From a bacterium (GTDB lineage: Bacteria > Auribacterota > UBA3054): a stretch of 64,000 nt of DNA. Below the pieces are notes generated by a model. That model did no database searches. It had not been told where the DNA came from and saw only the letters and a program-made list of their open reading frames with translations. Below, one piece after another: positions 21,419 through 64,000 of this stretch (within the stretch, counting starts at the first letter, position 1; each line of letters opens with the position of its first letter). Both the position numbers and the translations under genes were made by a program. The stretch is taken from positions 5,118-69,117 of the forward strand of contig JAGCTE010000006.1 of the NCBI GenBank assembly GCA_017963805.1, read 5' to 3'.

Positions 21419-21495
21419 GCGCCCGTGGCTCAATTGGATAGAGCGTTTGGCTACGGACCAGAAGGTTAGGGGTTCGAGTCCCTTCGGGCGTACCA
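21419..21495 (+). tRNA. tRNA-Arg (anticodon ACG), CCA encoded.
   Basis: Hand-folded cloverleaf. Acceptor stem GCGCCCG/CGGGCGT (one G-U pair). D-arm GCTC-AATTGGATA-GAGC. Anticodon arm TTTGG-CTACGGA-CCAGA, so anticodon ACG. T-arm with GTTCGAGTC. Ends ACCA. Confidence 0.85.
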
Positions 21496-21532
21496 TATTT
21501 TCCGCCGGAGTTTCCGCTCCGGCGGTTTTTTT
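21438..21532 (+). repeat. 95-bp direct repeat, copy 1. It comprises the 3' part of tRNA-Arg (D-loop to CCA) plus the downstream terminator. It is identical to 28363..28457.
   Basis: The atagagcgtttggctacggaccagaagg...ccggcggttttttt stretch is identical in both places. The flanks diverge immediately outside it. Confidence 0.9.
21502..21532 (+). terminator. Rho-independent terminator after tRNA-Arg (ccgccggag-tttccg-ctccggcgg + T7).
   Basis: Perfect 9-bp GC-rich stem immediately followed by ttttttt. Confidence 0.7.
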
Positions 21533-25797: not shown

Positions 25798-27170
25798 TCG
25801 GGATCTGGGGTTGGATCCGGGGCCAAGACAAAACGGCTCAGAATCGGACTGTTAATTTGTTGCGCTCTATATAGAATCTTCGGTCGCCCGAAGAAAAATG
25901 TATTGACCATTGACCAACTGGGATAACAGCCCCATCGTTGATCAGGAGGCGCTTTACGCGCCGCCAACGCGCTGGCGTATTCTATTATGTCGGCGCCGAA
26001 GTCAGACACATTGTTATTGAGTAGAAAATTTTCTGACCAAATCGGACTTTGATAAAAAGCAATGTCATCAATTCCGAAATTCATCGAATGATTTTTATTC
26101 CCAAATGTATCTTGACTGATACAAAGTAATGATATGCCTTCATAAATATAGTTTGTTGGAGAGTAAATGTCCGGACACAAAGGTTCGCAAGGCGTCACCA
26201 CGAAAGGTGTTCCATATGCCTCCCAAGTCGGATCCACCGCCCAGGCAACAGAATTAAAATTGGTTGCCACATCTTCTCTAAATATTCCCCATTCGCAACC
26301 ATCAAAATTGCATCCCAAGTTGGCAAATATAGTCCGTTCAGTTAGAGTAGGTCGCGAGGCTGCTAAGACCGCATAGGCATGGTATTGTAAATCAAGTAGT
26401 TCTCTTCCGTTAAAACGAACTTTCAAAGATCCTGTCGGGCTTGAATAATATAAATCTCCATGTCGTTCCATGAACATGTGGTATCCATCAGCGTATTCCT
26501 CCAACCACGTTTGCAAATCGCAATTTTGAATAATAAAATGCTGAGGATAATAATTATTTTTCCGGGTATCACCCCACAGTTTATAACCGCCGGAAGTTAT
26601 TATTTCCAATTTTCCTGGACCAATATACAAATCAGAATCTCTGACCCAAATTTTAACGCTGAGAAGATCATTGTCGTTCCTGTTCATTTGAACATCATCA
26701 TGATCTGGAGTCCCGTTCTTGTTGTCATCATCAAAATTCCAGTGAATAGGAACAGTAACTTGATCGCCAGTGTGCATCCCGTCTATTCCTCTCCTTTGCG
26801 AACTTAAAACAATATCCCTGTAATAAATATATTTTTCTTTTTCCAAGTGACAGATACGTCCTGTAGGATAAATATAATCAACACGAGCATAAGCAACAAG
26901 AACTACAGGCTCGCCTATATAACTTATGGTCAACGGGTTATACACGCTTGTACTCATAAGCTCGTTTCCCCACAAATCTCTTATTAAAAATACATTGGAA
27001 GTCACATCTCCCGAACAGTTAAAACTAACGGTAAACGTGTTGTTAGTTGTTCCTACCGCGACGCGAAACCTACCAAAAATGTCAATAGAATCCGGCACGT
27101 TTGCTAATGCCGCTTTGGCAAAACAAAAAGTGAACAATACAATTGAATGCAATATTATGTTTCTTTTCAT
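25794..27170 (-). CDS. Family-B secreted protein, copy B1 (HWNFDDDN / CEW motif family, function unknown).
   Basis: Signal peptide MKRNIILHSIVLFTFCFAKAALA. Shares VPIHWN(I/F)DDD(D/N)K and DGCEW motifs with the 50996..52432 and 59056..61059 products. Confidence 0.6.
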   Translation of the reverse strand: MKRNIILHSIVLFTFCFAKAALANVPDSIDIFGRFRVAVGTTNNTFTVSFNCSGDVTSNVFLIRDLWGNELMSTSVYNPLTISYIGEPVVLVAYARVDYIYPTGRICHLEKEKYIYYRDIVLSSQRRGIDGMHTGDQVTVPIHWNFDDDNKNGTPDHDDVQMNRNDNDLLSVKIWVRDSDLYIGPGKLEIITSGGYKLWGDTRKNNYYPQHFIIQNCDLQTWLEEYADGYHMFMERHGDLYYSSPTGSLKVRFNGRELLDLQYHAYAVLAASRPTLTERTIFANLGCNFDGCEWGIFREDVATNFNSVAWAVDPTWEAYGTPFVVTPCEPLCPDIYSPTNYIYEGISLLCISQDTFGNKNHSMNFGIDDIAFYQSPIWSENFLLNNNVSDFGADIIEYASALAARKAPPDQRWGCYPSWSMVNTFFFGRPKILYRAQQINSPILSRFVLAPDPTPDPE

Positions 27171-27171
27171 T

Positions 27172-28140
27172 TTACTCCTCCTTTTCCTTTAAGGATTCTG
27201 AGATAGCTTTCCTTACATCTTCGAATTCATATTCTTCCTTTTCGGGAAGTCTGTAATACCAGTAATTGTGATCGGGATGCTCAAAATAGCTTTCCATTTC
27301 TCTATGCCAATTAGGCATTTGTTCCATTACCCATGGTTCAAGCCGCATCTTACCATTAGCCAAGGCTCGTTCTATGCGCGCCCAACCTTCGGCATCTTGG
27401 AGGGTATATTTTTCTCGATTTGTTTCCCACCATTTTGCGTAATCTTTTCCTATTTGCGGATATCTATAGCCCTTTTGGAAAGGCTTTATAACCGCTTCTA
27501 AACTCTTGTCTCCATTTAGAAGCTCTTTGAAAATATACGGAAAGATATGATATCCCATGGAAGTAATGTCGCTGATAAGAAAAGACAAAATGAACTCCCT
27601 CGGATTTTCCCTCCTGTTTTCCTCCTGTCAGCAAGCATACCAGGCCTGCCAAATTTTTGGCATGTGTTTTCTTCCATATACGTACCAGAAATAATACAAA
27701 TCATCGGCACAGAAGATCCTATCGTCCTCTTTGCAATGGAACCAGGAGAAGGCCATGCATTTTGGCGCTTCATAGCCAAATTGCAAACCGCCGTGAATTC
27801 GCATCTGCTTTAAAACAGCTTCTGCCACTGTTCCAGTGGCGTACCCGTTACCGTCACAATATATTCTGGTCTCGACATCTATGCCCCAGCCGTCTTCTAC
27901 CAACTCAGTTAATTTTTCCCAAGCCTCAGAAGGCGACAAACTTTGCAACTGAATACGCGCCTCAAAACCCTCTTTGAACTGTTGTTTAATTTCACCAGGA
28001 TGCTTGTCCCAAGAAAAATCTTCCTTTTCAAAGATAACTACAGGCGTGTTCTCGGCCTTGATGAGCAAATTTGTATATGCCGCCGTCTCTATTCCAAAAA
28101 CCGGAATGGATAAGCATAAACATAAAAGCATTTTCTTCAT
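27172..28140 (-). pseudogene. Family-C secreted protein, copy C1, interrupted by a single in-frame TGA at a conserved Trp codon (28140..27631 plus 27627..27172).
   Basis: ORFs 27628..28140 and 27172..27588 are in the same frame. Across the junction the sequence reads WYAC*QEENRR...GYHIFPYIF, versus intact paralog C2 WYRCWQEENSR...GFYIFPYLA. The TGA at 27628..27630 replaces the TGG that all other copies have. Confidence 0.6.
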
Positions 28141-28362
28141 TGATTCTCTCCGCTTAATAGGCTAACTTTTAACTTCGCAATTATTGTAATAGATAAGTGT
28201 CCTTTTTGTCAAGTCTTGCTTTGCCAAAACGGTATGCCTGTTTTCACACGGCAAAACTTGCCTATTAATAACAAGTTTGAAACTTTTTTGACTACATTGC
28301 TTTGTAATAAGCTGTCGCAAAAACAAAATTTTTGTGTCAGGCTCGTTCGTATTACAGTTAAA

Positions 28363-28457
28363 ATAGAGCGTTTGGCTACGGACCAGAAGGTTAGGGGTTC
28401 GAGTCCCTTCGGGCGTACCATATTTTCCGCCGGAGTTTCCGCTCCGGCGGTTTTTTT
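28363..28457 (+). repeat. 95-bp direct repeat, copy 2. A 5'-truncated tRNA-Arg fragment plus terminator copy (att-like right end).
   Basis: Identical to 21438..21532. It lacks the tRNA acceptor 5' strand and D-stem, so it is not a functional tRNA. Confidence 0.9.
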
Positions 28458-40518: not shown

Positions 40519-40524
40519 AAAAAA

Positions 40525-40553
40525 GAGACCCTGAAAAACAGGGTCTTTTTTTT
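40525..40553 (+). terminator. Rho-independent terminator after dnaA (agaccctg-aaaaa-cagggtct + T8).
   Basis: Perfect 8-bp stem followed by tttttttt. Confidence 0.7.
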
Positions 40554-48526: not shown

Positions 48527-49722
48527 CGGCCAGGCAGCTGGCCCTCGCCGCGCTCCTAAATTGGCAGAAAGATCCCCAAAGCCATCTGGAGCAGCACATC
48601 AAGGGAAACCTCCCTCCCAAAGACCTTGACCTCGCCTACACCATCTGCCGCGGCGTCCTGAAAGAAAAGTCTTTTTTGAAAGCCACTCTCAAGCGTTATC
48701 TCAAAAAAGACAAGCTTCCCAAAGCAACTGAAACCATCCTGCTCATTGCCGCCTATCAAAGGCTCTTCCTCACGAAGATCCCCAACTACGCCATCATTTC
48801 CGAAGCGGTCAAATTAGCCAAGCAAAAATCCCCCGCCCACGCCTCTCTCGTCAACGCCGTCCTACGCAATCTCGACCGAGACATCACGGAAGGCTTCGAT
48901 CCCAACAAACAAGACCTTTCCCTTTCTGAGCGCTACTCCCATCCCCAGGAACTCATCGACTTAATAAACGACGAGACCAAAGATCAGGCCCTAACGGAAC
49001 AGATCCTTATTTGGGACAACGCCAAACCGAAAACTTTCCTAAGACTGAAAAACGGCGGCTATGAAGAATGCCTTGACGTCAAGGCGGCCGTCAACAGTCC
49101 TGAGTTCAAGCAAGGCGAGATCTACTTCATGCAGCTCTGGTCGCAAGCCGTGGCCAACGCCGCGCCCGTAAAAGACGGCAGCAAAGTCCTTGACCTCTGC
49201 GCCGCCCCCGGCGGCAAGAGCCTCGCCCTCTTGGACCGAGCCAAAATAAAACTCACCGCCTGCGACCTCTCCGAAACCAGACTCTCGCAACTTAGAGAAA
49301 ACTTCGCGCGCCTCGGCTACGAAAACGATTCTAGTATCACAATAAAACAAATTGACGCCCGCATAGCCCAGACAGAGTTCCCGCCAGAATCTTTTGACCT
49401 TGTGCTCCTCGACGCCCCCTGCTCAAGCCTAGGCACCATCCAACGCAATCCCGAACTCAGGTGGCGCTTCAAAATTGACCAGCTCGCTGAATACGCCGCG
49501 CTCCAGAAAAGCATTCTAAATGCCGCCCAAACCTTGGTCGCTCCCCAAGGCTATCTCCTCTACGCCGTCTGCTCTTTTGCCAAAGCCGAGCGCGAGGCCG
49601 CGGACCTCCTCCGCCAGGACAAAAATTGGATTTTAAAAGAAGAAAAGCTCACCTACCCCGGCGAGCAGAACCTTTTCGACGGCGGCTACTTCGCTCTCTT
49701 CCAGAAAAAGAGCGGAACTTGA
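48523..49722 (+). CDS. rsmB: 16S rRNA (cytosine-C5) methyltransferase RsmB/Sun with an N-terminal NusB-like domain.
   Basis: SAM motif LDLCAAPGGKSLAL and catalytic DAPCSSLGTIQRNPELRW. Conserved fmt-rsmB synteny. Confidence 0.8.
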   Translation: MTARQLALAALLNWQKDPQSHLEQHIKGNLPPKDLDLAYTICRGVLKEKSFLKATLKRYLKKDKLPKATETILLIAAYQRLFLTKIPNYAIISEAVKLAKQKSPAHASLVNAVLRNLDRDITEGFDPNKQDLSLSERYSHPQELIDLINDETKDQALTEQILIWDNAKPKTFLRLKNGGYEECLDVKAAVNSPEFKQGEIYFMQLWSQAVANAAPVKDGSKVLDLCAAPGGKSLALLDRAKIKLTACDLSETRLSQLRENFARLGYENDSSITIKQIDARIAQTEFPPESFDLVLLDAPCSSLGTIQRNPELRWRFKIDQLAEYAALQKSILNAAQTLVAPQGYLLYAVCSFAKAEREAADLLRQDKNWILKEEKLTYPGEQNLFDGGYFALFQKKSGT

Positions 49723-49788
49723 TTCTACGAGTTGTTTTTTATAAAATATTCTAGAAACGGTTTTCATTTTATTATCGAGGGACATGTT

Positions 49789-50976
49789 ATGAAAAAAGCA
49801 TTGGCTTTGTTTTTGCTCATAGCCTGCACCAGTCTTTTCGCGGAAGACGTCTCCGTAAAGCCCGCGGGTGAAGGCACCGCGGAAAGTCCCTATTTGTTCG
49901 ACAGCTTGGAAAACTTTTTCTGGCTAAGAAAACAAACCTCCGAAATGGATCCCAACGTTCCGGTCTATTGCAAGCAGATAAAAGACATCGACGCCAGCGC
50001 CACGCAGCAAGGCGGCGATTACGCATGGTCGGACATAAACTTTTCCCAAAACAACCTTTTCGTCTACGATGGTCAAGAATATACTATCTACGGTCTTGAA
50101 CCGAACGAAAAAGGCGCCCTTTTCGGCACCGGCTACATGCAGCTCAAAAACATCCGAATACAAGGCGCGGAAGGGATCAAGACCTGCGCTTTGGCGAAAA
50201 ACTTATCTTCAGACAAAAGCAGAAACGGCTGTTTTGAGAATTGCTATATCAAAGGGCTTTTGGTAGAGACGCCAGCATTAGCAGATACAGTTAGAGGCAT
50301 GTTCATAAAAATCGAAGATTGTATCGTTGAAGCGGACATAGAAATAAAAAACGAGAAAACATCAAGCGGCGCTTTAATAAACTTTATGTACATTAAGGGA
50401 GGAACAAACAGCGTAAGAAAAACTTGTTTTAAGGGAAAAGTAAAAACAAAACCTCTATCGCACGTTTGTGGGTTAACGGTAACTTTGACATTAGGAAGCG
50501 TGCTTAACAACACCGAACTTAAAATAGAAGATTGCTACACGGATCTAACCGTGGAATGCGATCCTGATGACAGACATACCGTCACCGGACTAATAGGCGC
50601 TGCGGATATGAGCATTTACTCGAACGTAGTTTTGAGTATCGAGCGTTGCTACACGACGTGCGAGGCAAGCGAAAGCATGGATTATGGCGCTGCATACATT
50701 TATCAACTGACAAATACTGTCAACACGTTGAACATAAAGGGCTGTTATTACAGAGAGGCTCCACATTTCACCGACGATTACGCGATCGGAAAGACCGATG
50801 AGGAAATGAAGCAACAGGCCACTTTTGAAAACTGGGACTTTGAGAATGTCTGGGACATCGACGAAGGCAAAACCATGCCTTATTTCATATCCGAACTTCC
50901 CGAACCGACAGGAATGGCAATTATGTTTTTGATGCTTCTAGTAAAAATCGGAGACTCTAAAATAACAAAAAAATAA
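49789..50976 (+). CDS. Family-A GLUG-like repeat surface protein with a PEP-CTERM-like anchor, copy A2.
   Basis: Start taken at MKKALALFLLIACTSLFA (signal peptide; the ORF track starts 19 codons earlier). PAGEGTAESPYLFDSLENFFWL N-terminal motif. I(K/E)DCY repeat units. ATFENWDFENVWDIDEGKTMPYFISELPEPTGMAIMFLMLLV tail. Confidence 0.65.
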   Translation: MKKALALFLLIACTSLFAEDVSVKPAGEGTAESPYLFDSLENFFWLRKQTSEMDPNVPVYCKQIKDIDASATQQGGDYAWSDINFSQNNLFVYDGQEYTIYGLEPNEKGALFGTGYMQLKNIRIQGAEGIKTCALAKNLSSDKSRNGCFENCYIKGLLVETPALADTVRGMFIKIEDCIVEADIEIKNEKTSSGALINFMYIKGGTNSVRKTCFKGKVKTKPLSHVCGLTVTLTLGSVLNNTELKIEDCYTDLTVECDPDDRHTVTGLIGAADMSIYSNVVLSIERCYTTCEASESMDYGAAYIYQLTNTVNTLNIKGCYYREAPHFTDDYAIGKTDEEMKQQATFENWDFENVWDIDEGKTMPYFISELPEPTGMAIMFLMLLVKIGDSKITKK

Positions 50977-50995
50977 AAGGTCAACAGGAAATCAC

Positions 50996-52432
50996 ATGGA
51001 AAAAGGAATCGAAAAAGAACAAACATTCTGGCTTGTTTTGGCGACAAGTTTTGTGATTTTGAAAAGTTTAACTATATATGCCTATCAAACAGAATTTCTG
51101 AATATTATTGGTAATACCAACGTGGCAATTGGAAAATCATCGGTGTCATATGACATTGATTATAATGTTAATGGCAATATTTTGAATTGCCATTCAAGTG
51201 TCTTTGATGTAGAAGGCGATGTCCTTGACGAAAGCGTTCCTGGCAGCCAGAATCTTGATCTGTTTTTTACCGCACCCTCTCATGAGTGCGTTTTGATTAT
51301 TGAGGCTTCAATAACTTATCAAACATATATATATCCATGGGAATATCATGTCCTTTCAGCAACTAGAAATGTAAATGTTCAAAAGCCGTTTTTGCATACC
51401 ATTAGAACAGGCTTAGACGGTGTTACTTATGAAGACAACAGCATAGCTGTGCCCATTCATTGGAATATAGATGATGATGACAAATCCGGGTATGGCGGAG
51501 GCTCCAATGCAGATTATGGGGAAGATTATAGACAATACGAATTTTTGTCTAGCGGTATTGATGACGATTTATATAGTATACAAGCAAGCGTAACAAATGC
51601 CGATTTTAATGCATCTGGTTGTATATTAAAAATAAAAACCCCAGACTCTATGCGTTTGTGGTTTTCTCAAAACAAAAGCACGCTATGCTGTGATACGAAT
51701 AGCATTTATAGAACGCGTTGCAACATTGTAAATTGGTTCAATACTCACGCAAACTCAGCGGGAAACAGGTTGTATGTCGAATGGGTGGTTCCGCCAAACA
51801 CGACTACAAACGAATGTATTGAGTTTTACTGTAACGACATTCAATTTGCCGAATTGCGTTATAAAGGTTATGCCGTTACGGTTGGAGGGCTACCAAACAA
51901 AGCAGAAAGAGCGTTTTTTGAAACAAATTGCTATTTTTTGGATGGGTGCGAATGGCGTATTGCACCCGGCGGCGGAACTCACGTGCATGATCGCAATTCC
52001 TTATCGGAATCTATAGATCCAACCTGGGAGAGATACGGGGAAGAGTTTGTTGCAACAACCAGCGCACCGCTCTGCACAAACATTTATTTTTTGCGTACAG
52101 CAATGTATAATAACTTCCAATGCCGTTGCATCAGCATGGATTCCTTTTATGACCAGAATCACATATTTAGCGAAGCCGACGCAACGGCTTTTTTCACAAT
52201 CTATAATTTCTGGCATGATAATTTCTCAAATATCCGCTTTACAGCGATATCATATACTACAACGGACAGTTTGCGGCACGCAAAATTAATGATGCCAATA
52301 GGGTTAATTGTCATTCTTCTTGGGCAATGGTTTCAAGCCGTTTTTTCAATAGGCCAAAAATCGTTCATAGAGCCGAGCAGCTTGGACCAATTAAAACAAT
52401 TCAAAAAACTTACATTATGGTTCCATCGCTAG
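50996..52432 (+). CDS. Family-B secreted protein, copy B2 (HWNIDDDD / CEW motif family).
   Basis: N-terminal hydrophobic segment. VPIHWNIDDDDKSGYGG and LDGCEWRIAPGG motifs shared with B1 and B3. Markedly AT-rich coding sequence. Confidence 0.6.
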   Translation: MEKGIEKEQTFWLVLATSFVILKSLTIYAYQTEFLNIIGNTNVAIGKSSVSYDIDYNVNGNILNCHSSVFDVEGDVLDESVPGSQNLDLFFTAPSHECVLIIEASITYQTYIYPWEYHVLSATRNVNVQKPFLHTIRTGLDGVTYEDNSIAVPIHWNIDDDDKSGYGGGSNADYGEDYRQYEFLSSGIDDDLYSIQASVTNADFNASGCILKIKTPDSMRLWFSQNKSTLCCDTNSIYRTRCNIVNWFNTHANSAGNRLYVEWVVPPNTTTNECIEFYCNDIQFAELRYKGYAVTVGGLPNKAERAFFETNCYFLDGCEWRIAPGGGTHVHDRNSLSESIDPTWERYGEEFVATTSAPLCTNIYFLRTAMYNNFQCRCISMDSFYDQNHIFSEADATAFFTIYNFWHDNFSNIRFTAISYTTTDSLRHAKLMMPIGLIVILLGQWFQAVFSIGQKSFIEPSSLDQLKQFKKLTLWFHR

Positions 52433-52467
52433 ACCCGGAAGGTAATTCTTTGGAGGAGGAATAAAAT

Positions 52468-53427
52468 ATGATGCTAGTTGTTTGTATAGTTTTATTCTCA
52501 TCTATTGTTTTTGGAATAGAGCCGGAAAGGTTTACTTCGTTATTGGAAAAAGCGGGGCAAACGCCTGCTATTGTTTTTGAAAAGGACGATTTTTCTTGGG
52601 ATAAATATCCGGCGGAAGTCAAAACGAATTTCATTGATGGCGTTAACGCGCAGGACCAACTTAACAAACTGGCTCCTTCTGAAACGATTCCCATCTTGTT
52701 TGATTTACTTGAAAACGGCAAGGACATCGAAAAAGCGATTCCTTTATATCTTGAAAAACACGGGTATTACACCAATTCATTTACCGAAGAAATTTATAAG
52801 CAAATAAGAGATCAAGGCGGGATTAGTTGCGGGTACAGCGGACTGGGATCGTTAGCGTTTCCCTGGCTAACGAAGAAATATAGAGGTAAAGATTTCAACG
52901 AACGTGAGATCCAGTACTTCTGGTGGGTTTATGACAGAAAACATCTGCCTGAAATCTGGCAAACTTGGTATCGCTGCTGGCAGGAAGAGAACTCCAGACC
53001 GGAACCGAGAAAATATGTGCAAACACGTTTGCTTTCTGACGTTTCGTGTTTGGGATTTTATATCTTCCCTTACCTTGCGGAAACCCTGAAAAACGATAAG
53101 AGTTTGGAAGCGATTGTTGACATTTTTAAATCTTATCCGTGCTTTCCCATCAAAGGAGATTTTCAATTGTGGTGGGAAAATAACGAGGCTAGATACGCTT
53201 TTCCGGAAGCGAAAGGTTGGAATCACGCTCTAGAGATCATTCGCACAGAAAAATTAGCAGTATATGGATCGGCAAAGGAGAATATGTTTTTGTGGCACGA
53301 GCTTGCAGAAAAATATTATTCTGGCTATAATGTAAATCGGTATTGGTATTATTTTCTTTCCGACAAGGAAGAAATAAAAGAAGAAGATGTTACTGAGGCG
53401 ATTTGCAAAGCAATAGAAGACAAATGA
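52468..53427 (+). CDS. Family-C secreted W/Y-rich protein, intact copy C2.
   Basis: Signal peptide. FEKDDFSWDKYP, YFWWVYDRKHLPEIWQTWYRCWQEE and YWYYFLSDKEE motifs. It is homologous over its whole length to the C1 pseudogene pair and to C3 at 61099..62304. Confidence 0.6.
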   Translation: MMLVVCIVLFSSIVFGIEPERFTSLLEKAGQTPAIVFEKDDFSWDKYPAEVKTNFIDGVNAQDQLNKLAPSETIPILFDLLENGKDIEKAIPLYLEKHGYYTNSFTEEIYKQIRDQGGISCGYSGLGSLAFPWLTKKYRGKDFNEREIQYFWWVYDRKHLPEIWQTWYRCWQEENSRPEPRKYVQTRLLSDVSCLGFYIFPYLAETLKNDKSLEAIVDIFKSYPCFPIKGDFQLWWENNEARYAFPEAKGWNHALEIIRTEKLAVYGSAKENMFLWHELAEKYYSGYNVNRYWYYFLSDKEEIKEEDVTEAICKAIEDK

Positions 53428-53443
53428 TTTTAAAGGAGCGTTT

Positions 53444-54655
53444 ATGAAAAAAATATTTGTCTATATTTTTGTGCTTACAGGTTTGGTTTTCGCCGATTGT
53501 GGTCCCATAAAGCCCTTAGGCAAAGGGACACATGAGGATCCTTTTCTTTTTGCGCAGATCGGTAATTTTGCTTGGTTTGCGAACAATTATAAAAAGATCG
53601 AACATGGCCCAATCGTTTATTGCGTGCAGGTAAACGATATTGACGCCACGAAATCAAAAGACTGGTGGCGTTTCCCTATAATGCGGACGGATGATTATAT
53701 TTTGAATTACGATGGGCAAGGATATTCGATCAATAATCTTTGCATGGGCTGGTGTGATAACGAAACTGGCGGACTGTTCACGGAAGGCGTTTTCCAGTTG
53801 AAAAACATAAACCTTATTGAAGCGGAAAAGAACAGATATGAAAACACCGTCGGACTTTTAGTTGGGAAGCTATACGCGGGAAAAGGGCAGGAGGCGTTTG
53901 TCCGAAATTGTCATGTACAGGGAAAAACGACATACTGGCTTGCCAGCGCGTTTATCGGTAAGTTAACGGTTGGAAAAGGCGGCAAAATTGAAATAAGCGA
54001 TTGTTCCGTTGACGCGGAAATCAAAGACGGACCTGCGGGGCTGATCACGACGGTAAACAACCACGGAACATTGACGATTAAAAACACATCGATTAAGTGT
54101 CAAATCGATTATAATATCGATCCTTTGTCTTGGGGCGGAGATGTGAAGACCGCCGGTTTTATAAATCAGATTTTATTGTATAAAGGGTCAAAAACGAATA
54201 TCGAAGATTGCTATTCCGATGTTGATATTAATATTATGGTGAGATCCGCTGTCGCTTCCGGCTTTATAGGCGAATTGTTCAATCAGGACCATAGAGAGAG
54301 AGTCGATGTTGCGATCAAGCGTTGTTATTCTACAGGAACTATAAACAAGACCAACGGTTACGCGACGGCAAGTTTCCTATCCATAGTGGACAATCTCTAT
54401 ACCAACGAAGAGACCATAATTGTAAAGGATTGCTATTACAATTCCACGTCCTTTAAAAAAGGCGATAAATACGCGCTTCCCAAGACAGAAGAAGAGATGA
54501 AACAGTTGGCCACCTTCGAAAACTGGGACTTTGAGAATGTTTGGGACATCGATGAAGGCGAAAGCATGCCTTATTTCATATCCGAAATTCCTGAGCCCTG
54601 CGGAATGCTTGTGCTTCTTCTTTTGCCTTTGTTTTTAAGAAGAAACAAAAATTAA
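53444..54655 (+). CDS. Family-A GLUG-like repeat surface protein with a PEP-CTERM anchor, copy A3.
   Basis: Signal peptide. I(E/K)DCY / I(K)RCY repeat units. ATFENWDFENVWDIDEGESMPYFISEIPEPCGMLVLLLLPLFLRRNKN gives a PEP + TM + basic tail. Confidence 0.7.
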   Translation: MKKIFVYIFVLTGLVFADCGPIKPLGKGTHEDPFLFAQIGNFAWFANNYKKIEHGPIVYCVQVNDIDATKSKDWWRFPIMRTDDYILNYDGQGYSINNLCMGWCDNETGGLFTEGVFQLKNINLIEAEKNRYENTVGLLVGKLYAGKGQEAFVRNCHVQGKTTYWLASAFIGKLTVGKGGKIEISDCSVDAEIKDGPAGLITTVNNHGTLTIKNTSIKCQIDYNIDPLSWGGDVKTAGFINQILLYKGSKTNIEDCYSDVDINIMVRSAVASGFIGELFNQDHRERVDVAIKRCYSTGTINKTNGYATASFLSIVDNLYTNEETIIVKDCYYNSTSFKKGDKYALPKTEEEMKQLATFENWDFENVWDIDEGESMPYFISEIPEPCGMLVLLLLPLFLRRNKN

Positions 54656-59055: not shown

Positions 59056-61059
59056 ATGAATAGAAAAAGAAAACCTTTATCGCGGATGAAAACGTTTTTC
59101 TCCATTCTGCTCATCCTAGCCTGCGCGCTAGTATCAACATCTATTTGCTTAGCCAACGACGGGTCAGACATCACTATCAGCGGGGAGTCTCCTCGCCATG
59201 GAATTGGCTCCTCGCTTTATACGGCATCTTCAAAAGACGGCGATGTGGTTTCTTGCGATTGGTGGATAACAGATTTTGTAAAATACAATCCAACTTCTAC
59301 CGTAACGCTTGCTGAAGTTGAAAAGCGAGGAGAAGATGCTTACTTAACATTTCATGATTTCGGCTCTGTAACTCTCAAATGCAGAGCCTCAGTTGATATA
59401 AAAGGGGAAAACAAAGACCAATACGGTAGCAGGACAATTGAGTGCAAAAAGCTACCCCCAAACACAACTCCGACACTGAGCATTAATGGCGAAGATTATG
59501 TGTCGCTTAATTCAGAGCACGAATATGTAGCGGAATGTAAAGCGGCTGGAACCCCTACGATAACCTGGGCATATCCGGTCAACCAAACTCATACAGGGGA
59601 AAAAGTAACCATAGAATTCACGGATTTAGGATTCTTTCGATTGAATTGTACTTTAAAGTCTACCGACGCCCAAGGAAACAATGTTCCGGATGTAGACGAC
59701 CACAAAGACATACATGTTCTTTCGCCTGTCGTACTAACAGCGTTGAGAGCAAATTACGAAAATCCCAATGTCGCCAACATCCCCGGAGAAGAAATAGTCA
59801 AGATACATTACAATATTGACGATGATGACGAATCGTGCGAAGAAAACGACTACAACAAGGGTTGCGACTGCCTGCAAACAGCATTTAAGACAGGCAACGA
59901 AAATCCTGATGACGATCTGTGCAAACTTGAGATAAGCTTTGGAAACAACTTCAACGATTTTACAGAAGGAACTGTGTATATCGAAGTCACCAAGGGTTTA
60001 AGGCTTTGGTGTAACAACCTGCGCACAAATGACAATGATATTTTCTTAGGTAAAGATAATAAACCCGAACAAATAGCATTGTCTTTCAGTGTCCCGGCGG
60101 AAAAAACAAAAATTCAAAATATTATAAACAACGGCCTGTATGTTGAAGGCTTAGCTCCGGGTTACAGATACCTAAAGATAAAGTTTGCCGACAAGCAACT
60201 TAAATTGCCGTATTATTGTTACGCGGTTGGAGAACCACAAAACCAGCCGGACCTAACAACAAGGAAATCTTATAAGAAGAATAGCAGTTTCCCTAATCTT
60301 GTTGACTGCGAATGGTGCATAAAAGAGTTATCAAACACAACTTATCTTGATTCATATAACTGCATAGCATATGCTGTTGACCCCAGAAGAGAGGTTTTCG
60401 ACGATAATACTGCTAGTTATGCCACACCTTTTCAAGGGGCTTTCTGGGTAAATACAAACGAGTTCTGGTTAGGAACGCCAGGTTTTGATTCTTGGAACGA
60501 GAACAATTGGCGTATGGACCCGTTTGTATATGAGGTACATATTGCATTAGATGATTGGTCTTCTTTAAAAACAGAATATAGAGTTAAATTTCTAAACCCA
60601 AATATAACGCCATTTATAGCTTTGGATACAAATGATTCTGTATTTTTCCGAGGATTTTCTTTAGCTTATAGAGAATTATTAAAGGATGTTTTAAGAGAGC
60701 ACCCGACTTATATGACACTGACATGGCGTGGTACTTCAATGGCTGTATTTAATAGAGCGGCAGCGACTGATGACATAGATAATTTTTTCACTTTACCAGA
60801 TTTTGCCGCTTCAATTTATAACGGCCATACTCTTGTTGGATGTGATACAAACGATAACAGCAGAATAGTTATGTATTATTCAGAGTATCACGCGGCAAGA
60901 GCATTGTCAAAAACATTTGATTGTAAAAAACTTGGCAAAAGCGCTGATCCAGATTGGAAGATGGCTGTAAGTAAATGCGGAAAGAGACGACAGCTATTGA
61001 TCCATCGCGAAGAACAAGTAGCCCCTTTGTATGGAAAAGTAAAAAGAGCATACAAATAA
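59056..61059 (+). CDS. Family-B secreted protein, copy B3 (largest copy, 667 aa).
   Basis: Signal peptide in MKTFFSILLILACALVSTSICLA. IHYNIDDDDESCEEND and DCEWCIKELS motifs shared with B1/B2. AT-rich. Confidence 0.6.
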   Translation: MNRKRKPLSRMKTFFSILLILACALVSTSICLANDGSDITISGESPRHGIGSSLYTASSKDGDVVSCDWWITDFVKYNPTSTVTLAEVEKRGEDAYLTFHDFGSVTLKCRASVDIKGENKDQYGSRTIECKKLPPNTTPTLSINGEDYVSLNSEHEYVAECKAAGTPTITWAYPVNQTHTGEKVTIEFTDLGFFRLNCTLKSTDAQGNNVPDVDDHKDIHVLSPVVLTALRANYENPNVANIPGEEIVKIHYNIDDDDESCEENDYNKGCDCLQTAFKTGNENPDDDLCKLEISFGNNFNDFTEGTVYIEVTKGLRLWCNNLRTNDNDIFLGKDNKPEQIALSFSVPAEKTKIQNIINNGLYVEGLAPGYRYLKIKFADKQLKLPYYCYAVGEPQNQPDLTTRKSYKKNSSFPNLVDCEWCIKELSNTTYLDSYNCIAYAVDPRREVFDDNTASYATPFQGAFWVNTNEFWLGTPGFDSWNENNWRMDPFVYEVHIALDDWSSLKTEYRVKFLNPNITPFIALDTNDSVFFRGFSLAYRELLKDVLREHPTYMTLTWRGTSMAVFNRAAATDDIDNFFTLPDFAASIYNGHTLVGCDTNDNSRIVMYYSEYHAARALSKTFDCKKLGKSADPDWKMAVSKCGKRRQLLIHREEQVAPLYGKVKRAYK

Positions 61060-61098: not shown

Positions 61099-62304
61099 AT
61101 GAAAAAATATACCTTATTCATTCTGATGTTTTTAACGGCACTCAACGTTTTTAGTTTAACTCAAGAAGAAAAAGAAAAAATCTATAATTCTATTGTCGCC
61201 GAAGCAAAGCTACCTGAGGATTACAGTAGCTCATCGCTTTTATCTATTTCATATGCTAGAAAAAACACACGTCAATTGCCTCCTGGATTCGATGTTGATG
61301 CATATGTTGAAACTCTTATTGGAACAAATTCCAAGCAAAAAACAAATTTTGTGGGAACGATTTCTAAATTAGAAGCAGACGCCAACAAAGCATCAAAATA
61401 TCTTAATTCTTTGCCGCCTTCAACGCTTATTCCGGCGTTTTATGAGCTAAGATTGGATGGTAAAATACGCGATTCTGTTGATTATTATGCATATATAGAT
61501 CTTGACGAAACCAACGAATATGACAAAGCAGATTTGGTTCGCGTTTTTGAGAATGAAGCGATCGTGCGGAAAAAGAGAGAACTTGCAGGAATTGTTCTCA
61601 GATATTCTCGTTGCGAAGGTTTTATAAAAGGCGACCTCATAGGAATGATCAATCCCAAAGCGTCGTATGAAAGCAATTTTCGCGCATACTGGTGGCTGGA
61701 AGGAAGGAGATTCATGCCTGAGATCTGGAACGTTTGGTATCCCTGCTGGCAAAACGAGATGTCCAGGAAAAAACCTAGGGAGTCGGTGACGGAACAATTG
61801 GTGGAAGACATCGGCTGTTTCGGTACATTTCTCTTTCCACATTTGAACGAAGCGATCAAGGAAGGTGATTATACCCTGACGCCTGTTTTAGAAGAGATTT
61901 CTTATCGCACCGAGGTTGAATTGCCGTCGGCAAAAGAATTCTGCGAATGGTATTCGACCAATAGTTACAAGTATGATTATCCGCCTTGCGAAGGCATAAG
62001 AAAGACGATCGAGAAAGTCAAGGATCCCTATATTCTTTCCGAGCTGAAAGGCGAAGACACGTATGACGATAGGAAAAAATTTGGTGACAAATGGGCGTTT
62101 CACACTTTTGAACGAAATGTGTTCAAGCAAGTCCTCTGGCAAGCGGAAGACTATTACAAGAAGAGGGAATACCCGCCCGATTACTGGTATTACAAGCTGC
62201 CTGACGAAGCGGCTTATGAATATAAGTCAGAGATTCCGAGCTTCAGCGGTTCCACCAACTTCAATAAGGGCTTCCTTAAGAAAATAGAAGAAAAGCGGAA
62301 ATGA
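61099..62304 (+). CDS. Family-C secreted W/Y-rich protein, copy C3.
   Basis: Signal peptide MKKYTLFILMFLTALNVFS. YWWLEGRRFMPEIWNVWYPCWQNEMSRKKP and DYWYYKLPDEAAYEYK motifs, collinear with C2. Confidence 0.6.
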   Translation: MKKYTLFILMFLTALNVFSLTQEEKEKIYNSIVAEAKLPEDYSSSSLLSISYARKNTRQLPPGFDVDAYVETLIGTNSKQKTNFVGTISKLEADANKASKYLNSLPPSTLIPAFYELRLDGKIRDSVDYYAYIDLDETNEYDKADLVRVFENEAIVRKKRELAGIVLRYSRCEGFIKGDLIGMINPKASYESNFRAYWWLEGRRFMPEIWNVWYPCWQNEMSRKKPRESVTEQLVEDIGCFGTFLFPHLNEAIKEGDYTLTPVLEEISYRTEVELPSAKEFCEWYSTNSYKYDYPPCEGIRKTIEKVKDPYILSELKGEDTYDDRKKFGDKWAFHTFERNVFKQVLWQAEDYYKKREYPPDYWYYKLPDEAAYEYKSEIPSFSGSTNFNKGFLKKIEEKRK

Positions 62305-63560
62305 ATAGGCTGCTGTTTGTTTTGCTTTTTTTCGGCTTTGGCGTTTCGGCCGCGTTAGGGGAAGCGCTGTCTTCCAATTTCGTCTTGGACGACAAGGATT
62401 ACGCTTCCATGACAGAAAGGCTGCTGCCTTACTGCGGTGAAGAAGCAAAGGGCTTTTTAGAGGAAAAGCTGCGCTCCGGGAAAGACCTTAAGGACGCGTA
62501 TGAGCTGGCCAGGATAGAAGCGCACCCCTTGCTGGAGCAGGAGCTTGAGAAAAGAAAAGCTCTGCTTGGCAAGGGACGGATAAGGCTGTTGTCATATGAC
62601 GAGATCTGTGACAATGTCAAATATGTCTGGAGCGCCTTCTATCTTCAGAAAAACGGAAAAGGCTTGTCGGTTGAAAAAATGATCGGGGCCTTGAACAAGA
62701 TCGAGGAACTGAAGGAAAGGCTAAAAGACGACAGCGACCAGCTGTATGATATAAACGAATACAGGGATCTGCATCTTCTGCCTGGAATGTCGGGTCAGCT
62801 TTACCAGCTGGCGGAGAAGATATTCTGGCGCGGACACTGCAAAAAGGCCTACCGCTGTATGAATTATTTCCTTTTGCCAGAGAACAAAGACGACTTCTCG
62901 GTAGGGGCGGCGCACTATTATCTCGGCAATCTTCTGGCGCATAGGTGGGACGAACTTGGCTATAAAGCTTCGGACAAAATGGAGCTGGAAGCGCTGCGGC
63001 ATTACATTAAAACGCCGCAGTATAAAACCTGCCTGACATATATAGCGTACTCATATTTTAAAGCGGCGGATATGGCATCCCGTTTCAATGATTACCGGAC
63101 ATCATACGCTTTGGCATCCATGGACGTTCCATGCGTGGATTATGACTATGCAACCGGCCAGCGTCATTACAACGCGGCCCTGGCCAGTTACGAGTTGAAA
63201 AAATTCACAAACTGCGTGCTGCATATCCAGGAAGTGCAGCGGTACTATCCGAGACTTGAAGTGGAATGGCTCTTAAAGCGGATCCCCTATTACGACAAGG
63301 AAAGCCTGTGGAACTGGTGCTTTACGAATAAGCTTAGCGAAGCTGACAGGTACAACGCCGTTGTTGATGCCTTGACAAACGAGACTGCGTGTGTCGAGCT
63401 GGACGAGCTTTACGAAATTCTGACGATAGAATGGCCAAAATCGGCTGATCTGCCGGAAAGCGTAAGGACGAACAGGGTATTGAACAACAAATTCTTCGAG
63501 AATCTGCATAACGAAAATTTGAAAAGATTGCGTCAAAACAAAAAGAGGAGAAAAGAATGA
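62301..63560 (+). CDS. Family-D secreted helical protein, copy D3.
   Basis: Signal peptide. Its C-terminal two-thirds are homologous to D1 (21726..23627). Confidence 0.6.
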   Translation: MNRLLFVLLFFGFGVSAALGEALSSNFVLDDKDYASMTERLLPYCGEEAKGFLEEKLRSGKDLKDAYELARIEAHPLLEQELEKRKALLGKGRIRLLSYDEICDNVKYVWSAFYLQKNGKGLSVEKMIGALNKIEELKERLKDDSDQLYDINEYRDLHLLPGMSGQLYQLAEKIFWRGHCKKAYRCMNYFLLPENKDDFSVGAAHYYLGNLLAHRWDELGYKASDKMELEALRHYIKTPQYKTCLTYIAYSYFKAADMASRFNDYRTSYALASMDVPCVDYDYATGQRHYNAALASYELKKFTNCVLHIQEVQRYYPRLEVEWLLKRIPYYDKESLWNWCFTNKLSEADRYNAVVDALTNETACVELDELYEILTIEWPKSADLPESVRTNRVLNNKFFENLHNENLKRLRQNKKRRKE

Positions 63561-64000
63561 GAAACACGTTTGGAAAAATATTGTTTTTGGCGGTTGTTTT
63601 CTGCGCCTGCAATTGCTTTTCCGGGCACATAGACATCGTCAACGGAGTGTGGGCGGTCTCCAAGAACATGACGAAGAACCAGGAGATAGGAGGGAAACTA
63701 AGGGAGATAGAGGCGGTTGCCCGGCAGGACACCGACAAGGCGGCCGAGCTTTGCAAGGAGCTGAAAGAGTCGCTTGACGATCCCGAGATCTATACGGACG
63801 ACGGGGAGTATCTGCCACTGGTGCTGGACAGCATGTGGCTGTATTACGCGGCGCATAAAGGTTTGCAGGGAAAAGCTGTGCTTACGGAAGCACAAAGGCT
63901 GATAGAGGAATACGCCGAAAAGGCGGAGGGGCAGAGATATTGTGCGTACAAGTATCTTTATCATCGCATAAGAGGGTATTACTACGGCAAGAAAGACAAT
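63557..64000 (+). CDS. Family-D-related secreted protein, N-terminal fragment, truncated by the right window edge.
   Basis: ATG at 63557 overlaps the D3 stop (ATGA). MRNTFGKILFLAVVFCACNCFSGHIDIVNGVWAVS...CAYKYLYHRIRGYYYGKKDN is collinear with the D1 N-terminus MMKNTFCFFLSFIWASFSLGNIDIQRGVWLVS...FSYKYAQQALRRYYVKQND. Confidence 0.5.
   Translation, partial: MRNTFGKILFLAVVFCACNCFSGHIDIVNGVWAVSKNMTKNQEIGGKLREIEAVARQDTDKAAELCKELKESLDDPEIYTDDGEYLPLVLDSMWLYYAAHKGLQGKAVLTEAQRLIEEYAEKAEGQRYCAYKYLYHRIRGYYYGKKDN

What the first reader, a model, noticed from the sequence alone, without database searches (positions are those of the whole stretch)
49732..54655. Intact copy (A2-B2-C2-A3) of a lineage-specific four-family secreted-protein cassette with PEP-CTERM-anchored GLUG-like proteins
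Four consecutive plus-strand genes encode secreted proteins with no confident match to any characterised system, except that family A has GLUG-like repeats and an exosortase (PEP-CTERM) tail.

The families are:
- A: signal peptide, P.GxGT..SPY...LENF.WL start, I(K/E)DCY repeat units, invariant ATFENWDFENVWDIDEG block, then PEP-CTERM.
- B: VPIHWNIDDDDK and DGCEW motifs.
- C: FEKDDFSWDKYP, YFWWVYDRKHLPEIWQTWYRCWQEE and YWYYFL motifs.
- D: helical, TPR-like.

The same families recur at 21.7-28.1 kb and at 59.1-64 kb with a different gene order each time (C-B-A-x-D; A-B-C-A; B-C-D-D). That pattern suggests a modular, diversifying cell-surface system rather than a simple tandem duplication.

An anchored A protein with soluble partners B, C and D could form a surface complex such as an adhesin, a glycan-degrading machine or contact-dependent recognition.
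Basis: partly seen in the sequence, partly recalled or inferred. Interest (0 to 1): 0.8.

Follow-up and report, generated by a model that had tools for sequence, protein, structure and literature searches.

The report
Mobile islets encoding secreted protein cassettes
An uncultured ruminant-gut bacterium carries several small, AT-rich, inserted gene islets. Each encodes a pair of exported proteins of unknown function that is also conserved in many environmental bacteria, here joined by surface-anchored beta-helix proteins. The pattern is real and undescribed, but its function is still unproven.

Summary
The four genes are real and form a tight operon (A2-B2-C2-A3). The same families recur at 21.7-28.1 kb and 59.1-64 kb.

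The copy is not intact: B2 carries a 10-bp frameshifting deletion.

- **A** is a GLUG beta-helix protein (related to PDB 3N6Z). Its PEP-CTERM-like tail scores just under the model cut-offs.
- **B** is not an orphan. Its C-terminus belongs to Pfam DUF7689.
- **C** belongs to the helical partner family encoded directly after DUF7689 genes in many environmental bacteria (60 of 77).
- B3 keeps the family's invariant Cys and His. B1 and B2 have lost them.
- **'x'** and the two **'D'** genes are halves of one family.

All cassettes, here and in relatives, are AT-rich islets (GC3 0.36-0.50 for A, B and C genes against 0.63-0.81 in flanking genes). They sit at different host genes. Four are flanked by duplicated host 3' ends. 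Cassette 1 lies between perfect 95-bp repeats of tRNA-Arg, with no integrase.

Best reading: mobile islets carrying a derived, probably non-catalytic enzyme-partner pair plus surface-anchored beta-helix proteins. Function is unproven. This is an uncharacterised module of moderate interest.

The parts
49786..50976 (+). A2: exported GLUG-type beta-helix protein with a PEP-CTERM-like tail (LPEPTGMAIMFLMLLVKIGDSKITKK). The ORF opens at a TTG at 49732; the likely start is the ATG at 49786.
   Evidence: 55% identical ortholog in GCA_017557885.1; the A-family profile hits PDB 3N6Z at 3e-12.
50996..52461 (+). B2: signal peptide, two beta-sandwich domains (HWNIDDDD...DDDL motif) and a DUF7689-type domain lacking the family's Cys and His. 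It is disrupted: the reading frame as it stands ends at 52432, and the ancestral frame resumes at 52234 and ends at 52461.
52231..52232 (+). Site of a 10-bp deletion (TTAAACACAG in strains L022 and L024) that frameshifts B2.
52468..53427 (+). C2: exported all-helical, Trp-rich protein. It is a divergent member of the partner family encoded directly after DUF7689 genes.
   Evidence: hhalign probability 97%, E 8e-11..
53444..54655 (+). A3: second GLUG beta-helix protein with tail IPEPCGMLVLLLLPLFLRRNKN. Its stop overlaps the stop of the convergent GH120-like gene.
   Evidence: GLUG 25.3 bits..
49719..49747 (+). Weak sigma-70-like promoter match upstream of A2. The number of matches in the region is not above the shuffle expectation.
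27172..28140 (-). C1, with an in-frame TGA at 27628-27630 in place of the invariant Trp of WYxCWQEE. An intact allele exists elsewhere (P0046).
25794..27170 (-). B1: B paralog lacking the family's Cys and His.
24505..25782 (-). A1: GLUG protein with tail LPEPGMLGLVILGLLCLHRRK, the tail closest to the PEP-CTERM models.
23624..24508 (-). It is a paralog of the N-terminal half of D (Dn), possibly a lipoprotein (VFGC).
21726..23627 (-). D1: fusion of the Dn and Dc modules.
21419..21495 (+). tRNA-Arg(ACG), the integration target of cassette 1.
21438..21532 (+). Left copy of a perfect 95-bp direct repeat: the 3' 58 nt of tRNA-Arg plus a terminator hairpin.
28363..28457 (+). Right copy of the 95-bp repeat. 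It scores as a degenerate tRNA (Rfam 30 bits). Together the two copies bound the 6.8-kb islet 21533-28362.
59056..61059 (+). B3: a longer B with extra N-terminal Ig-like repeats. It keeps the DUF7689 family's Cys (YNCIAYAVD), His (YHAARAL) and Ser-Lys.
61099..62304 (+). C3: the partner of B3. It is hit directly by the environmental partner HMM (5.8e-11).
62301..63560 (+). D2 = Dc, homolog of the C-terminal half of D1.
63557..64000 (+). D3 = Dn, homolog of the N-terminal half of D1. It runs off the window; the full gene is 307 aa in L105.

Best explanation
The segment is one copy (type II, A-B-C-A') of a family of small, AT-rich, horizontally moving gene islets in an uncultured ruminant-gut bacterium (NCBI MAG 'bacterium', locus tags J6X96_).

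**Shown:**
- Every islet is built around an adjacent pair of exported proteins. B has Ig-like domains, an Asp-rich beta-sandwich and a DUF7689 domain. C is a helical, HEAT-like protein.
- This pair is a diverged form of a gene pair found next to each other in many environmental bacteria.
- The islets sit at different host genes. Four are flanked by duplicated host 3' ends. They carry no integrase and have foreign codon usage.

**Inferred:**
- In its canonical form, and in cassette 3 of this window, B is an exported Cys/His-type enzyme. C is its dedicated binding partner (guard, inhibitor or chaperone).
- In the cassette of the finding, B has lost the invariant Cys and His, so the B-C pair now acts by binding rather than catalysis.
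- Two GLUG beta-helix proteins have been added. They are delivered to the cell surface through a PEP-CTERM/exosortase-type tail.
- The product is therefore a cell-envelope or surface assembly for adhesion or recognition in the gut.
- Spread is by recombination between the carried and resident copies of the host 3' end (Campbell-type).

In this strain the copy is probably defective, because B2 is frameshifted.
For: **Operon and conserved order**
- Gaps between genes are 6-19 bp.
- The order is identical in more than 12 related loci and tandemly extended in L004.

**B belongs to the DUF7689 family**
- The exhaustive profile search gave 148 representatives.
- 65 of 73 distant relatives hit PF24738.
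- The family HMM scores B3 at 1.5e-69 and B2 at 1.8e-42.
- Cys/His/Ser-Lys are kept in B3-type and distant members. They are replaced in B1, B2 and the type-II orthologs.
- In the AF2 model (pLDDT 78) the Cys-equivalent position opens a helix and the His-equivalent position opens a strand.

**C belongs to the partner family**
- 58 of 66 immediate downstream genes form one family.
- hhalign gives probability 97%, E 8e-11.
- 60 of 77 B genes are followed by a C-like gene, and 60 of 64 C-like genes are preceded by B.

**A**
- GLUG hits and PDB 3N6Z at 3e-12.
- The tail pattern [LIV]PEP + 13-15 hydrophobic residues + basic residues is conserved in orthologs. It also occurs on unrelated proteins of the same genomes.

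**Islet nature**
- GC is 39-44% against 55-60% in the flanks. GC3 is 0.36-0.50 against 0.63-0.81. The same holds in all relatives.
- A perfect 95-bp tRNA-Arg repeat flanks cassette 1.
- Flanking repeats of 300 bp, 241 bp and 31 nt occur at other loci.
- C2 and A3 are nearly identical between strains (dS 0.005-0.066), while flanking genes show dS 0.09-1.47.

**Selection:** dN/dS is 0.17-0.49.
Against: - No function has been demonstrated for DUF7689, for the partner family or for GLUG.
- The fold of DUF7689 could not be tied to any solved enzyme.
- The PEP-CTERM models stay below their cut-offs, and no exosortase gene could be looked for.
- A physical B-C or A-B-C interaction was not modelled.
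- Two of the three cassettes in this window carry inactivating lesions.
- No flanking repeat was found for cassette 3.
- The right junction of cassette 2 in the window is eroded.
- The Campbell-type route is inferred from repeats alone.
Confidence: 0.4

Rival explanations
1. Antagonism module. B is an exported Cys/His toxin (for example a cell-wall or protein hydrolase) aimed at competitors. C is the periplasmic immunity protein that protects the producer. The islets are polymorphic toxin-immunity cassettes.
For: - DUF7689 always sits at the extreme C-terminus behind variable N-terminal parts (PKD, cadherin, Big_9, Chlam_PMP, FlgD_ig).
- A conserved exported partner gene follows directly.
- Orphan DUF7689-only ORFs without a signal peptide, followed in L075 by a second partner gene, occur in L043 and L075.
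- The islets are multi-copy, mobile and compositionally foreign.
Against: - In the cassette of the finding, B lacks the Cys and His. Yet C is the best-conserved gene of the cassette (68-78% identity across species, against 49-57% for B). That is not expected of an immunity gene for a dead toxin.
- B and C are coupled almost 1:1, with few orphan partners.
- No secretion-system or trafficking domain is linked.
- Canonical pairs have near-native GC.
Confidence: 0.25
2. Cargo-processing module. B is a sortase-like or protease-like enzyme that matures or attaches the A proteins (or other PEP-CTERM cargo). C and D act as scaffolds.
For: - A and B are adjacent in type I and II cassettes.
- Architecture: Ig-like domains followed by a C-terminal Cys/His-type domain. 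L,D-transpeptidases with the same layout were the top Foldseek matches, though only at TM about 0.2.
Against: - The correlation runs the wrong way. Cassettes with A have a B without the invariant Cys, and the B that keeps the Cys and His (type III) has no A.
- Canonical B-C pairs in other phyla have no GLUG neighbour.
Confidence: 0.08
3. Glycan-degrading or adhesive surface machine made of A+B+C+D together.
For: - All products have signal peptides.
- A is a beta-helix, a fold shared with many polysaccharide lyases and hydrolases.
- Glycoside hydrolase genes (GH2, GH120-like) lie next to two of the cassettes.
Against: - No family hits a carbohydrate-active enzyme or binding module.
- The neighbouring GH genes are host genes outside the islets, and they differ from locus to locus.
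- A and D co-occur only in type I cassettes.
Confidence: 0.1
4. Decaying foreign DNA with no present function in this strain.
For: - C1 has a nonsense codon and B2 a frameshift.
- Codon usage is foreign.
- dN/dS is higher than in housekeeping genes.
Against: - Gene order and reading frames are kept across species at 27-70% identity.
- dN/dS stays well below 1.
- Intact alleles of both damaged genes exist in other strains.
Confidence: 0.08

Closest known systems
PEP-CTERM / exosortase protein sorting (TIGR02595, PF07589)
   Same: The A proteins end in [LIV]PEP, then 13-15 hydrophobic residues, then a basic cluster, at the very C-terminus. Unrelated proteins of the same genomes carry the same tail.
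   Different: The curated models stay under their cut-offs (best 15.3 against 16 and 17.7 against 20.7). The hydrophobic stretch is short. No exosortase gene was seen or could be searched for.
GLUG-domain beta-helix proteins (PF07581; PDB 3N6Z 'putative immunoglobulin A1 protease'; N-terminal region of ZmpA-type proteases)
   Same: A1 and A3 pass the Pfam cut-off. The A-family profile matches 3N6Z at 3e-12 over the repeat region.
   Different: There is no protease domain. The proteins are small (about 400 aa), have an exosortase-type tail, and sit in a fixed operon with B and C.
Pfam DUF7689 proteins and their downstream partner (uncharacterised)
   Same: B shares the Asp-rich beta-sandwich plus DUF7689 unit. 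C shares the partner fold and motifs (WW..GRK..P...W; LG..PY; WW..N..Y..P). The gene order B then C is the same.
   Different: B1 and B2 lack the invariant Cys and His. The cassettes are multi-copy, AT-rich and inserted, and carry extra A and D genes. Canonical pairs have native GC and TPR-protein neighbours that show no detectable homology to D.
Polymorphic toxin-immunity cassettes and periplasm-acting effector/immunity pairs such as T6SS Tae/Tai (from established knowledge)
   Same: C-terminal putative enzyme domain behind variable N-termini. Exported cognate partner encoded directly downstream. Occasional orphan modules. Location on mobile islets.
   Different: Export is by Sec signal peptides, and no dedicated secretion system is linked. 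Coupling is 1:1. The partner is more conserved than the 'toxin' even where the catalytic residues are lost.
Genomic islands integrated at tRNA genes
   Same: Cassette 1 is bounded by a perfect direct repeat of the tRNA-Arg 3' end and has deviant GC.
   Different: It is only 6.8 kb with no integrase or other mobility gene. Sister islets use other targets (3' ends of CNNM and rsmB, and a convergent gene junction) with repeats of up to 300 bp. This fits homologous single crossover better than a site-specific recombinase.
N-terminal Ca-binding Ig-like domains of protein-arginine deiminases
   Different: There is no Pfam PAD_N or PAD_M hit. The catalytic domain is unrelated. Many other Ig-like proteins score equally well.

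Membership tests
PEP-CTERM sorting signal | C-terminal PEP motif, then a hydrophobic helix, then a basic cluster at the protein's end | tested here: met
   Tails of A1, A2, A3 and about 15 orthologs.
PEP-CTERM sorting signal | Score at or above the curated cut-off of TIGR02595 / PF07589 | tested here: not met
   A1 scores 15.3 bits (cut-off 16) and 17.7 bits (cut-off 20.7). A2, A3 and three orthologs give no hit.
PEP-CTERM sorting signal | Exosortase (EpsH/Xrt) gene in the same genome | not testable with these tools
   Only 64 kb of the genome was available, and the Pfam searches run on about 20 flanking ORFs gave no exosortase.
PEP-CTERM sorting signal | Several unrelated proteins in the genome share the tail | tested here: met
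   Window 7758-9461(-) ends in TLPEPAFLGILALIGLFAARKQR. L014 1-1824 ends in IPEPSFITLLVILSLVLMKRRA.
GLUG domain (PF07581) | Pfam gathering score (20.5 bits) | tested here: met
   A1 scores 30.8 bits and A3 25.3 bits. A2 has no hit of its own but is 30-34% identical to both. The family profile hits PDB 3N6Z at 3e-12.
DUF7689 (PF24738) | Pfam gathering score (22.6 bits) on the protein itself | tested here: not met
   B3 scores 14.6 bits (E 0.057). B1 and B2 give no hit.
DUF7689 (PF24738) | Homology to bona fide members shown by a profile | tested here: met
   The profile of B finds 148 representatives. 65 of 73 of them pass PF24738 at E up to 1.7e-21. Their HMM scores B3 at 1.5e-69, B2 at 1.8e-42 and B1 at 6e-35.
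DUF7689 (PF24738) | Family-invariant residues: Cys of YNC(I/V)A, His of HAA(R/K), Ser-Lys, His of IEH | tested here: inconclusive
   B3 keeps all except the Glu before Ser-Lys. B1 and B2 have Ser for Cys and Leu/Phe for His, as do the type-II orthologs aligned; the type-I ortholog L014_B lacks the Cys but keeps the His. So the test is met for cassette 3 and not met for the cassette of the finding.
DUF7689 partner family (unnamed) | Exported helical protein encoded directly downstream on the same strand, homologous to the environmental partners | tested here: met
   hhalign gives probability 97%, E 8e-11. The partner HMM hits C3 at 5.8e-11, C1 at 8.4e-7 and C2 at 1.2e-6.
Polymorphic toxin-immunity system | C-terminal toxin domain behind variable N-terminal regions, with the immunity gene immediately downstream | tested here: met
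   (for the wider family).
Polymorphic toxin-immunity system | Arrays of orphan toxin-tip and immunity modules | tested here: inconclusive
   Only two loci (L043, L075) show orphan modules. Only 3 unpaired partner genes were found.
Polymorphic toxin-immunity system | Toxicity of the domain and protection by the cognate partner | not testable with these tools
   Needs an experiment.
Polymorphic toxin-immunity system | Linked secretion or trafficking apparatus (T5SS/T6SS/T7SS, Rhs, etc.) | tested here: not met
   None was found in the cassettes or recurrently among 135 neighbours. Secretin genes near L016 and L017 are not conserved neighbours.
tRNA-integrated genomic island | Direct repeat of the tRNA 3' end at both borders | tested here: met
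   95 bp, 100% identical.
tRNA-integrated genomic island | Integrase or recombinase gene in the island | tested here: not met
   The islet 21533-28362 holds only D1, X1, A1, B1 and C1.
TPR proteins (for D) | TPR models above their cut-offs | tested here: not met
   Best hits are E 0.28-0.43. hhalign against the TPR neighbours of canonical pairs gives probability 1-2%.
Anti-phage defence systems / phage proteins | Match to PADLOC or PHROGs models | tested here: not met
   No meaningful hit.

The most novel reading that the evidence does not exclude
The DUF7689 protein and its helical partner form a previously undescribed, widely distributed two-protein exported system with its own chemistry. 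In one gut lineage it has become a self-propagating, integrase-less islet. The islet copies itself into the 3' ends of host genes by carrying a piece of the target. It has also swapped catalysis for surface display by recruiting exosortase-sorted beta-helix proteins. That would be both a new kind of envelope or competition system and an unusual mode of gene mobility.
Probability: 0.25. Interest if true: 0.8.

Novelty: new variant of a known kind. Interest (0 to 1): 0.55.

Why it matters
- **A testable pairing.** The work links an uncharacterised Pfam family (DUF7689) to an obligate, unnamed partner protein found across many environmental bacteria. That gives a two-gene unit that can be tested directly for enzyme/inhibitor or toxin/immunity behaviour.
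- **A natural experiment.** One genome holds a version with the conserved Cys and His (cassette 3). It also holds versions without them that have gained surface-anchored beta-helix proteins (cassettes 1 and 2).
- **An unexplained transfer route.** The islets are compositionally foreign, multi-copy (at least six B genes in one MAG) and exchanged between strains. They carry no mobility gene and are flanked by 31-300 bp duplications of host 3' ends. How genes move among uncultured rumen bacteria this way deserves explanation.

Tried and rejected
**Fold assignment of B and DUF7689**
- Profile searches of PDB sequences with the whole family, the canonical family and the DUF7689 domain alone found nothing.

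**Fold of C**
- The partner profile has no PDB match.

**D**
- No PDB match.
- I tested whether D corresponds to the TPR proteins next to canonical pairs. hhalign gave probability 1-2%, so this was rejected.
- Dn against Dc and D against C also showed no relation.

**Defence-system or phage origin**
- PADLOC and PHROGs gave nothing.

**The nearly identical 3' ends of A2 and A3**
- A 145-nt repeat at 80% identity might suggest gene conversion. The block consists of residues with one or two codons, so the DNA identity is not clearly beyond what the invariant peptide imposes. Not pursued.

**Taxonomy**
- NCBI calls the MAGs only 'bacterium'.
- The RGIG paper's held supplements and a literature search did not list these MAGs.

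**Literature**
- No paper mentions DUF7689 or GLUG together with PEP-CTERM.

**Flanking repeats for cassette 3**
- None were found.

**Positive selection**
- Rejected at whole-gene level, since dN/dS is below 0.5.

Full report
**Observation**

The window holds four consecutive plus-strand ORFs at 49732-54655, separated by 6-19 bp.
- A2: likely start is the ATG at 49786; ends at 50976.
- B2: 50996 onward.
- C2: 52468-53427.
- A3: 53444-54655.

The same families recur in two other places.
- On the minus strand at 21.7-28.1 kb, in the order C1-B1-A1-X1-D1.
- At 59.1-64 kb, as B3-C3-D2-D3.

The paralogy is far beyond chance.
- A proteins: 30-34% identity, E 1e-47 to 1e-59.
- B1/B2: 26% (2e-32). 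B2/B3: 27% (6e-8).
- C2/C3: 29% (3e-28).
- D1/D2: 33% (2e-58).

**Corrections to the observation**

1. The copy is not intact. A 99%-identical protein from another sample (P0001, 492 aa) matches B2 up to residue 413 and then continues in the +1 frame to 52461. Alignment with two syntenic strains shows a clean 10-bp deletion (TTAAACACAG) between 52231 and 52232. The truncated 478-aa product is also called on an independent assembly, and the intact 492-aa one on another. So the lesion looks real and polymorphic.
2. C1 carries an in-frame TGA (27628-27630) at the invariant Trp of WYxCWQEE. The intact allele exists elsewhere (P0046).
3. 'x' (X1) is a paralog of the N-terminal half of D1. D2 matches the C-terminal half and D3 the N-terminal half. 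The third cassette is therefore B-C-Dc-Dn, not B-C-D-D.

**Family A**

- Pfam GLUG passes its cut-off in A1 (30.8 bits) and A3 (25.3 bits, cut-off 20.5), but not in A2.
- A profile of the family matches PDB 3N6Z, deposited as a putative immunoglobulin A1 protease, at 3e-12 across the repeat region.
- Most members end in [LIV]PEP, then 13-15 hydrophobic residues, then a basic cluster.
- The curated PEP-CTERM models stay just under threshold for A1 (15.3 against 16; 17.7 against 20.7) and do not see A2 or A3.
- The same kind of tail sits on unrelated proteins of these genomes: window 7758-9461 and L014 1-1824. This supports a genome-wide sorting system of this type.
- No exosortase gene could be looked for.
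- Some orthologs replace the tail with a roughly 190-aa extension.

**Family B**

- Word-indexed searches found only 36 (B2) and 21 (B3) clusters among 5.8 billion proteins, all from gut or rumen assemblies.
- A scan of GTDB species genomes found four ruminant MAGs.
- An exhaustive profile search found 148 representatives. Of 73 distant ones, 65 pass Pfam DUF7689 (PF24738), with varied N-terminal parts: PKD, FlgD_ig, Big_9, cadherin, Chlam_PMP and others.
- The HMM of these relatives scores B3 at 1.5e-69, B2 at 1.8e-42 and B1 at 6e-35.
- The conserved unit is an Asp-rich beta-sandwich (H.N.DND...D...E.DL) followed by DUF7689. The DUF7689 part has a near-invariant Cys (YNCIAWS), His (HAAR), Ser-Lys and a second His (IEH).
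- B3 and its orthologs keep Cys, His and Ser-Lys. B1, B2 and the type-II orthologs aligned carry Ser and Phe/Leu at the Cys and His positions.
- In the AlphaFold model (pLDDT 78, pTM 0.72), the Cys-equivalent residue opens a helix (335-340). The His-equivalent residue opens a strand (429-433) of the following sheet. From general knowledge, this is the arrangement of papain-like Cys/His hydrolases. It is an inference.
- No paper mentions DUF7689, and NCBIfam has no model for it.

**Family C**

- There are only 13 clusters.
- I fetched 80 environmental loci that encode canonical DUF7689 proteins. In these, 58 of 66 genes directly downstream on the same strand form a single family of exported helical proteins. 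A few of them hit HEAT repeats.
- Profile-profile comparison joins C to this family (probability 97%, E 8e-11 over 181 columns).
- The family's HMM hits C3 (5.8e-11), C1 (8.4e-7) and C2 (1.2e-6) directly.
- Overall, 60 of 77 B genes with a downstream neighbour are followed by a C-like gene, and 60 of 64 C-like genes are preceded by B.
- The B-C pair is therefore an old, tightly coupled two-gene unit, not a lineage-specific invention.
- TPR proteins are the only other recurrent neighbours (18 of 135). They show no detectable homology to D.

**Cassette types in relatives**

- Type II, A-B-C-A', is found at two conserved sites. One is after TGT-smpB-hisD-def-peptidase C1-CNNM-CNNM. The other is after rsmB, as in the window. 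In L004 it is tandemly extended to A-B-C-A-B-C-A.
- Type I has the order D-B-C-A-X in L014 and C-B-A-X-D in the window.
- Type III is B3-C3-Dc-Dn. It is kept even where B is only 27% identical (L018).
- The invariant core is B next to C.
- A is present only where B lacks the invariant Cys. The B that keeps the Cys and His has no A.
- The MAG of the window (locus tags J6X96_) has at least six B genes.

**The cassettes are inserted islets**

- In the window they have 39-44% GC against 55-60% in the flanks.
- GC3 is 0.36-0.50 for A, B and C genes, against 0.63-0.81 for neighbouring genes.
- Every cassette in every relative shows the same drop: 33-43% against 50-58%.
- Canonical pairs in environmental bacteria are close to their flanks (median -3.6 points).
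- Cassette 1 lies exactly between two perfect 95-bp direct repeats, 21438-21532 and 28363-28457. The repeat consists of the last 58 nt of tRNA-Arg(ACG) plus a terminator hairpin. The right copy scores as a degenerate tRNA.
- The 6.8-kb islet between the repeats holds only the five cassette genes and no integrase.
- At other loci the flanking repeats are different pieces of host DNA.
  - 300 bp (95% identical) of the CNNM 3' end in L006.
  - 241 bp (97%) of a convergent gene junction in L015.
  - 31 nt (90%) of the rsmB 3' end right after A3 in L024.
- No repeat was found for cassette 3.
- Different targets, long repeats and the absence of a recombinase fit integration by a single homologous crossover of a circle that carries a piece of the target. 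This is inferred, not shown.
- Between syntenic strains, C2 and A3 are almost identical (dS 0.005-0.066). A2 and B2 show dS 0.35-0.68 and flanking genes show dS 0.09-1.47. This points to recent exchange of part of the cassette.
- dN/dS is 0.17-0.49 for cassette genes against 0.03-0.23 for flanking genes. Constraint is relaxed but purifying, with no whole-gene signal of diversifying selection.

**Interpretation**

Shown:
- a conserved operon;
- an ancient B-C pair;
- loss of the family's invariant Cys in all A-containing cassettes, and of the His in most of them;
- PEP-type tails on A;
- foreign composition;
- flanking target duplications.

Inferred:
- Canonical B is an exported Cys/His enzyme, and C is its dedicated binding partner.
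- In the finding's cassette the pair works by binding.
- The A proteins are displayed on the surface by exosortase-type sorting.

The main rival is a toxin-immunity reading.
- For it: the C-terminal position of DUF7689 behind variable N-termini, the downstream exported partner, and two loci with orphan modules.
- Against it: C is the best-conserved gene precisely where B is catalytically dead. Coupling is 1:1. No secretion apparatus is linked.

Other readings are less likely.
- A cargo-processing role for B is contradicted by the inverse association of A with catalytic B.
- Pure decay is contradicted by conserved frames and order across species and by dN/dS below 0.5.
- PADLOC and PHROGs gave nothing.

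**Verdict**

The more remarkable features are the conserved DUF7689-partner pair and the islet behaviour.

It is best filed as a new variant of known kinds: exosortase-type surface proteins plus an enzyme-partner module on a small genomic islet. There is a real chance (about 0.25) that the B-C unit and its mode of spread are something new. Interest is 0.55.

Noticed in passing
window 21438-21532 and 28363-28457: A perfect 95-bp direct repeat (the 3' part of tRNA-Arg plus a terminator hairpin) bounds cassette 1. The 6.8-kb islet between the copies has no integrase.
   Followed up: yes
L006 8380-8679 / 13762-14061; L015 9578-9818 / 15273-15513; L024 362-392 / 5333-5363: Sister cassettes at other loci are flanked by duplicated host 3' ends of 300 bp (95% identical), 241 bp (97%) and 31 nt (90%). 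This suggests insertion by homologous single crossover rather than a site-specific recombinase.
   Followed up: partly
window 27628-27630 (- strand): An in-frame TGA in C1 replaces an invariant Trp. The intact allele (P0046) is seen in other samples.
   Followed up: yes
window 39151-42005: dnaA and dnaN lie here, with an AT-rich dip at 40-41 kb, so the window probably spans the replication origin. Cassette 1 (minus strand, to the left) and cassettes 2 and 3 (plus strand, to the right) all point away from it.
   Followed up: no
window 52468-54655 vs L022 and L024: C2 and A3 are nearly identical between strains (dS 0.005-0.066). A2 and B2 show dS 0.35-0.68 and flanking genes show dS 0.09-1.47. 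This is a mosaic that points to recent exchange of half the cassette.
   Followed up: partly
L022 7384-8706: One strain has an extra RhuM-family gene between rsmB and A2, plus three identical 28-nt palindromes (AACTGTCGCAAATTTTGCGACAGTTGGA) spaced 114 bp apart. L024 has related palindromes and a 1.06-kb extra segment after A3.
   Followed up: no
window about 21559-21594 and 21634-21669: Two similar palindromes of about 28 nt (AAATTCGTGGCACACTGTGCCACGAATT and AAATTCGGTACACACTGTGTACCGAATT) lie just downstream of D1 inside the islet. They may be terminators or REP-like elements.
   Followed up: no
window 7758-9461 (- strand): A 567-aa protein with no Pfam hit ends in TLPEPAFLGILALIGLFAARKQR, the same tail type as the A proteins. 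It has native GC (GC3 0.79).
   Followed up: partly
L004 8295-17966: The cassette is tandemly expanded to A-B-C-A-B-C-A. Here the A proteins carry a C-terminal extension of about 190 aa in place of the PEP tail.
   Followed up: partly
L043 5478-5984; L075 9096-10395; L025 933-2393: In environmental loci, orphan DUF7689-only ORFs without a signal peptide follow the main pair; in L075 the orphan is itself followed by a second partner gene. In addition, one partner protein is an internal duplication (486 aa).
   Followed up: partly
window 50772-50916 and 54463-54607: The 3' ends of A2 and A3 share a 145-nt block at 80% DNA identity (about 90% over the central 100 nt), although the genes are otherwise only 34% identical at the protein level. 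This is probably the invariant peptide, though gene conversion is possible.
   Followed up: partly
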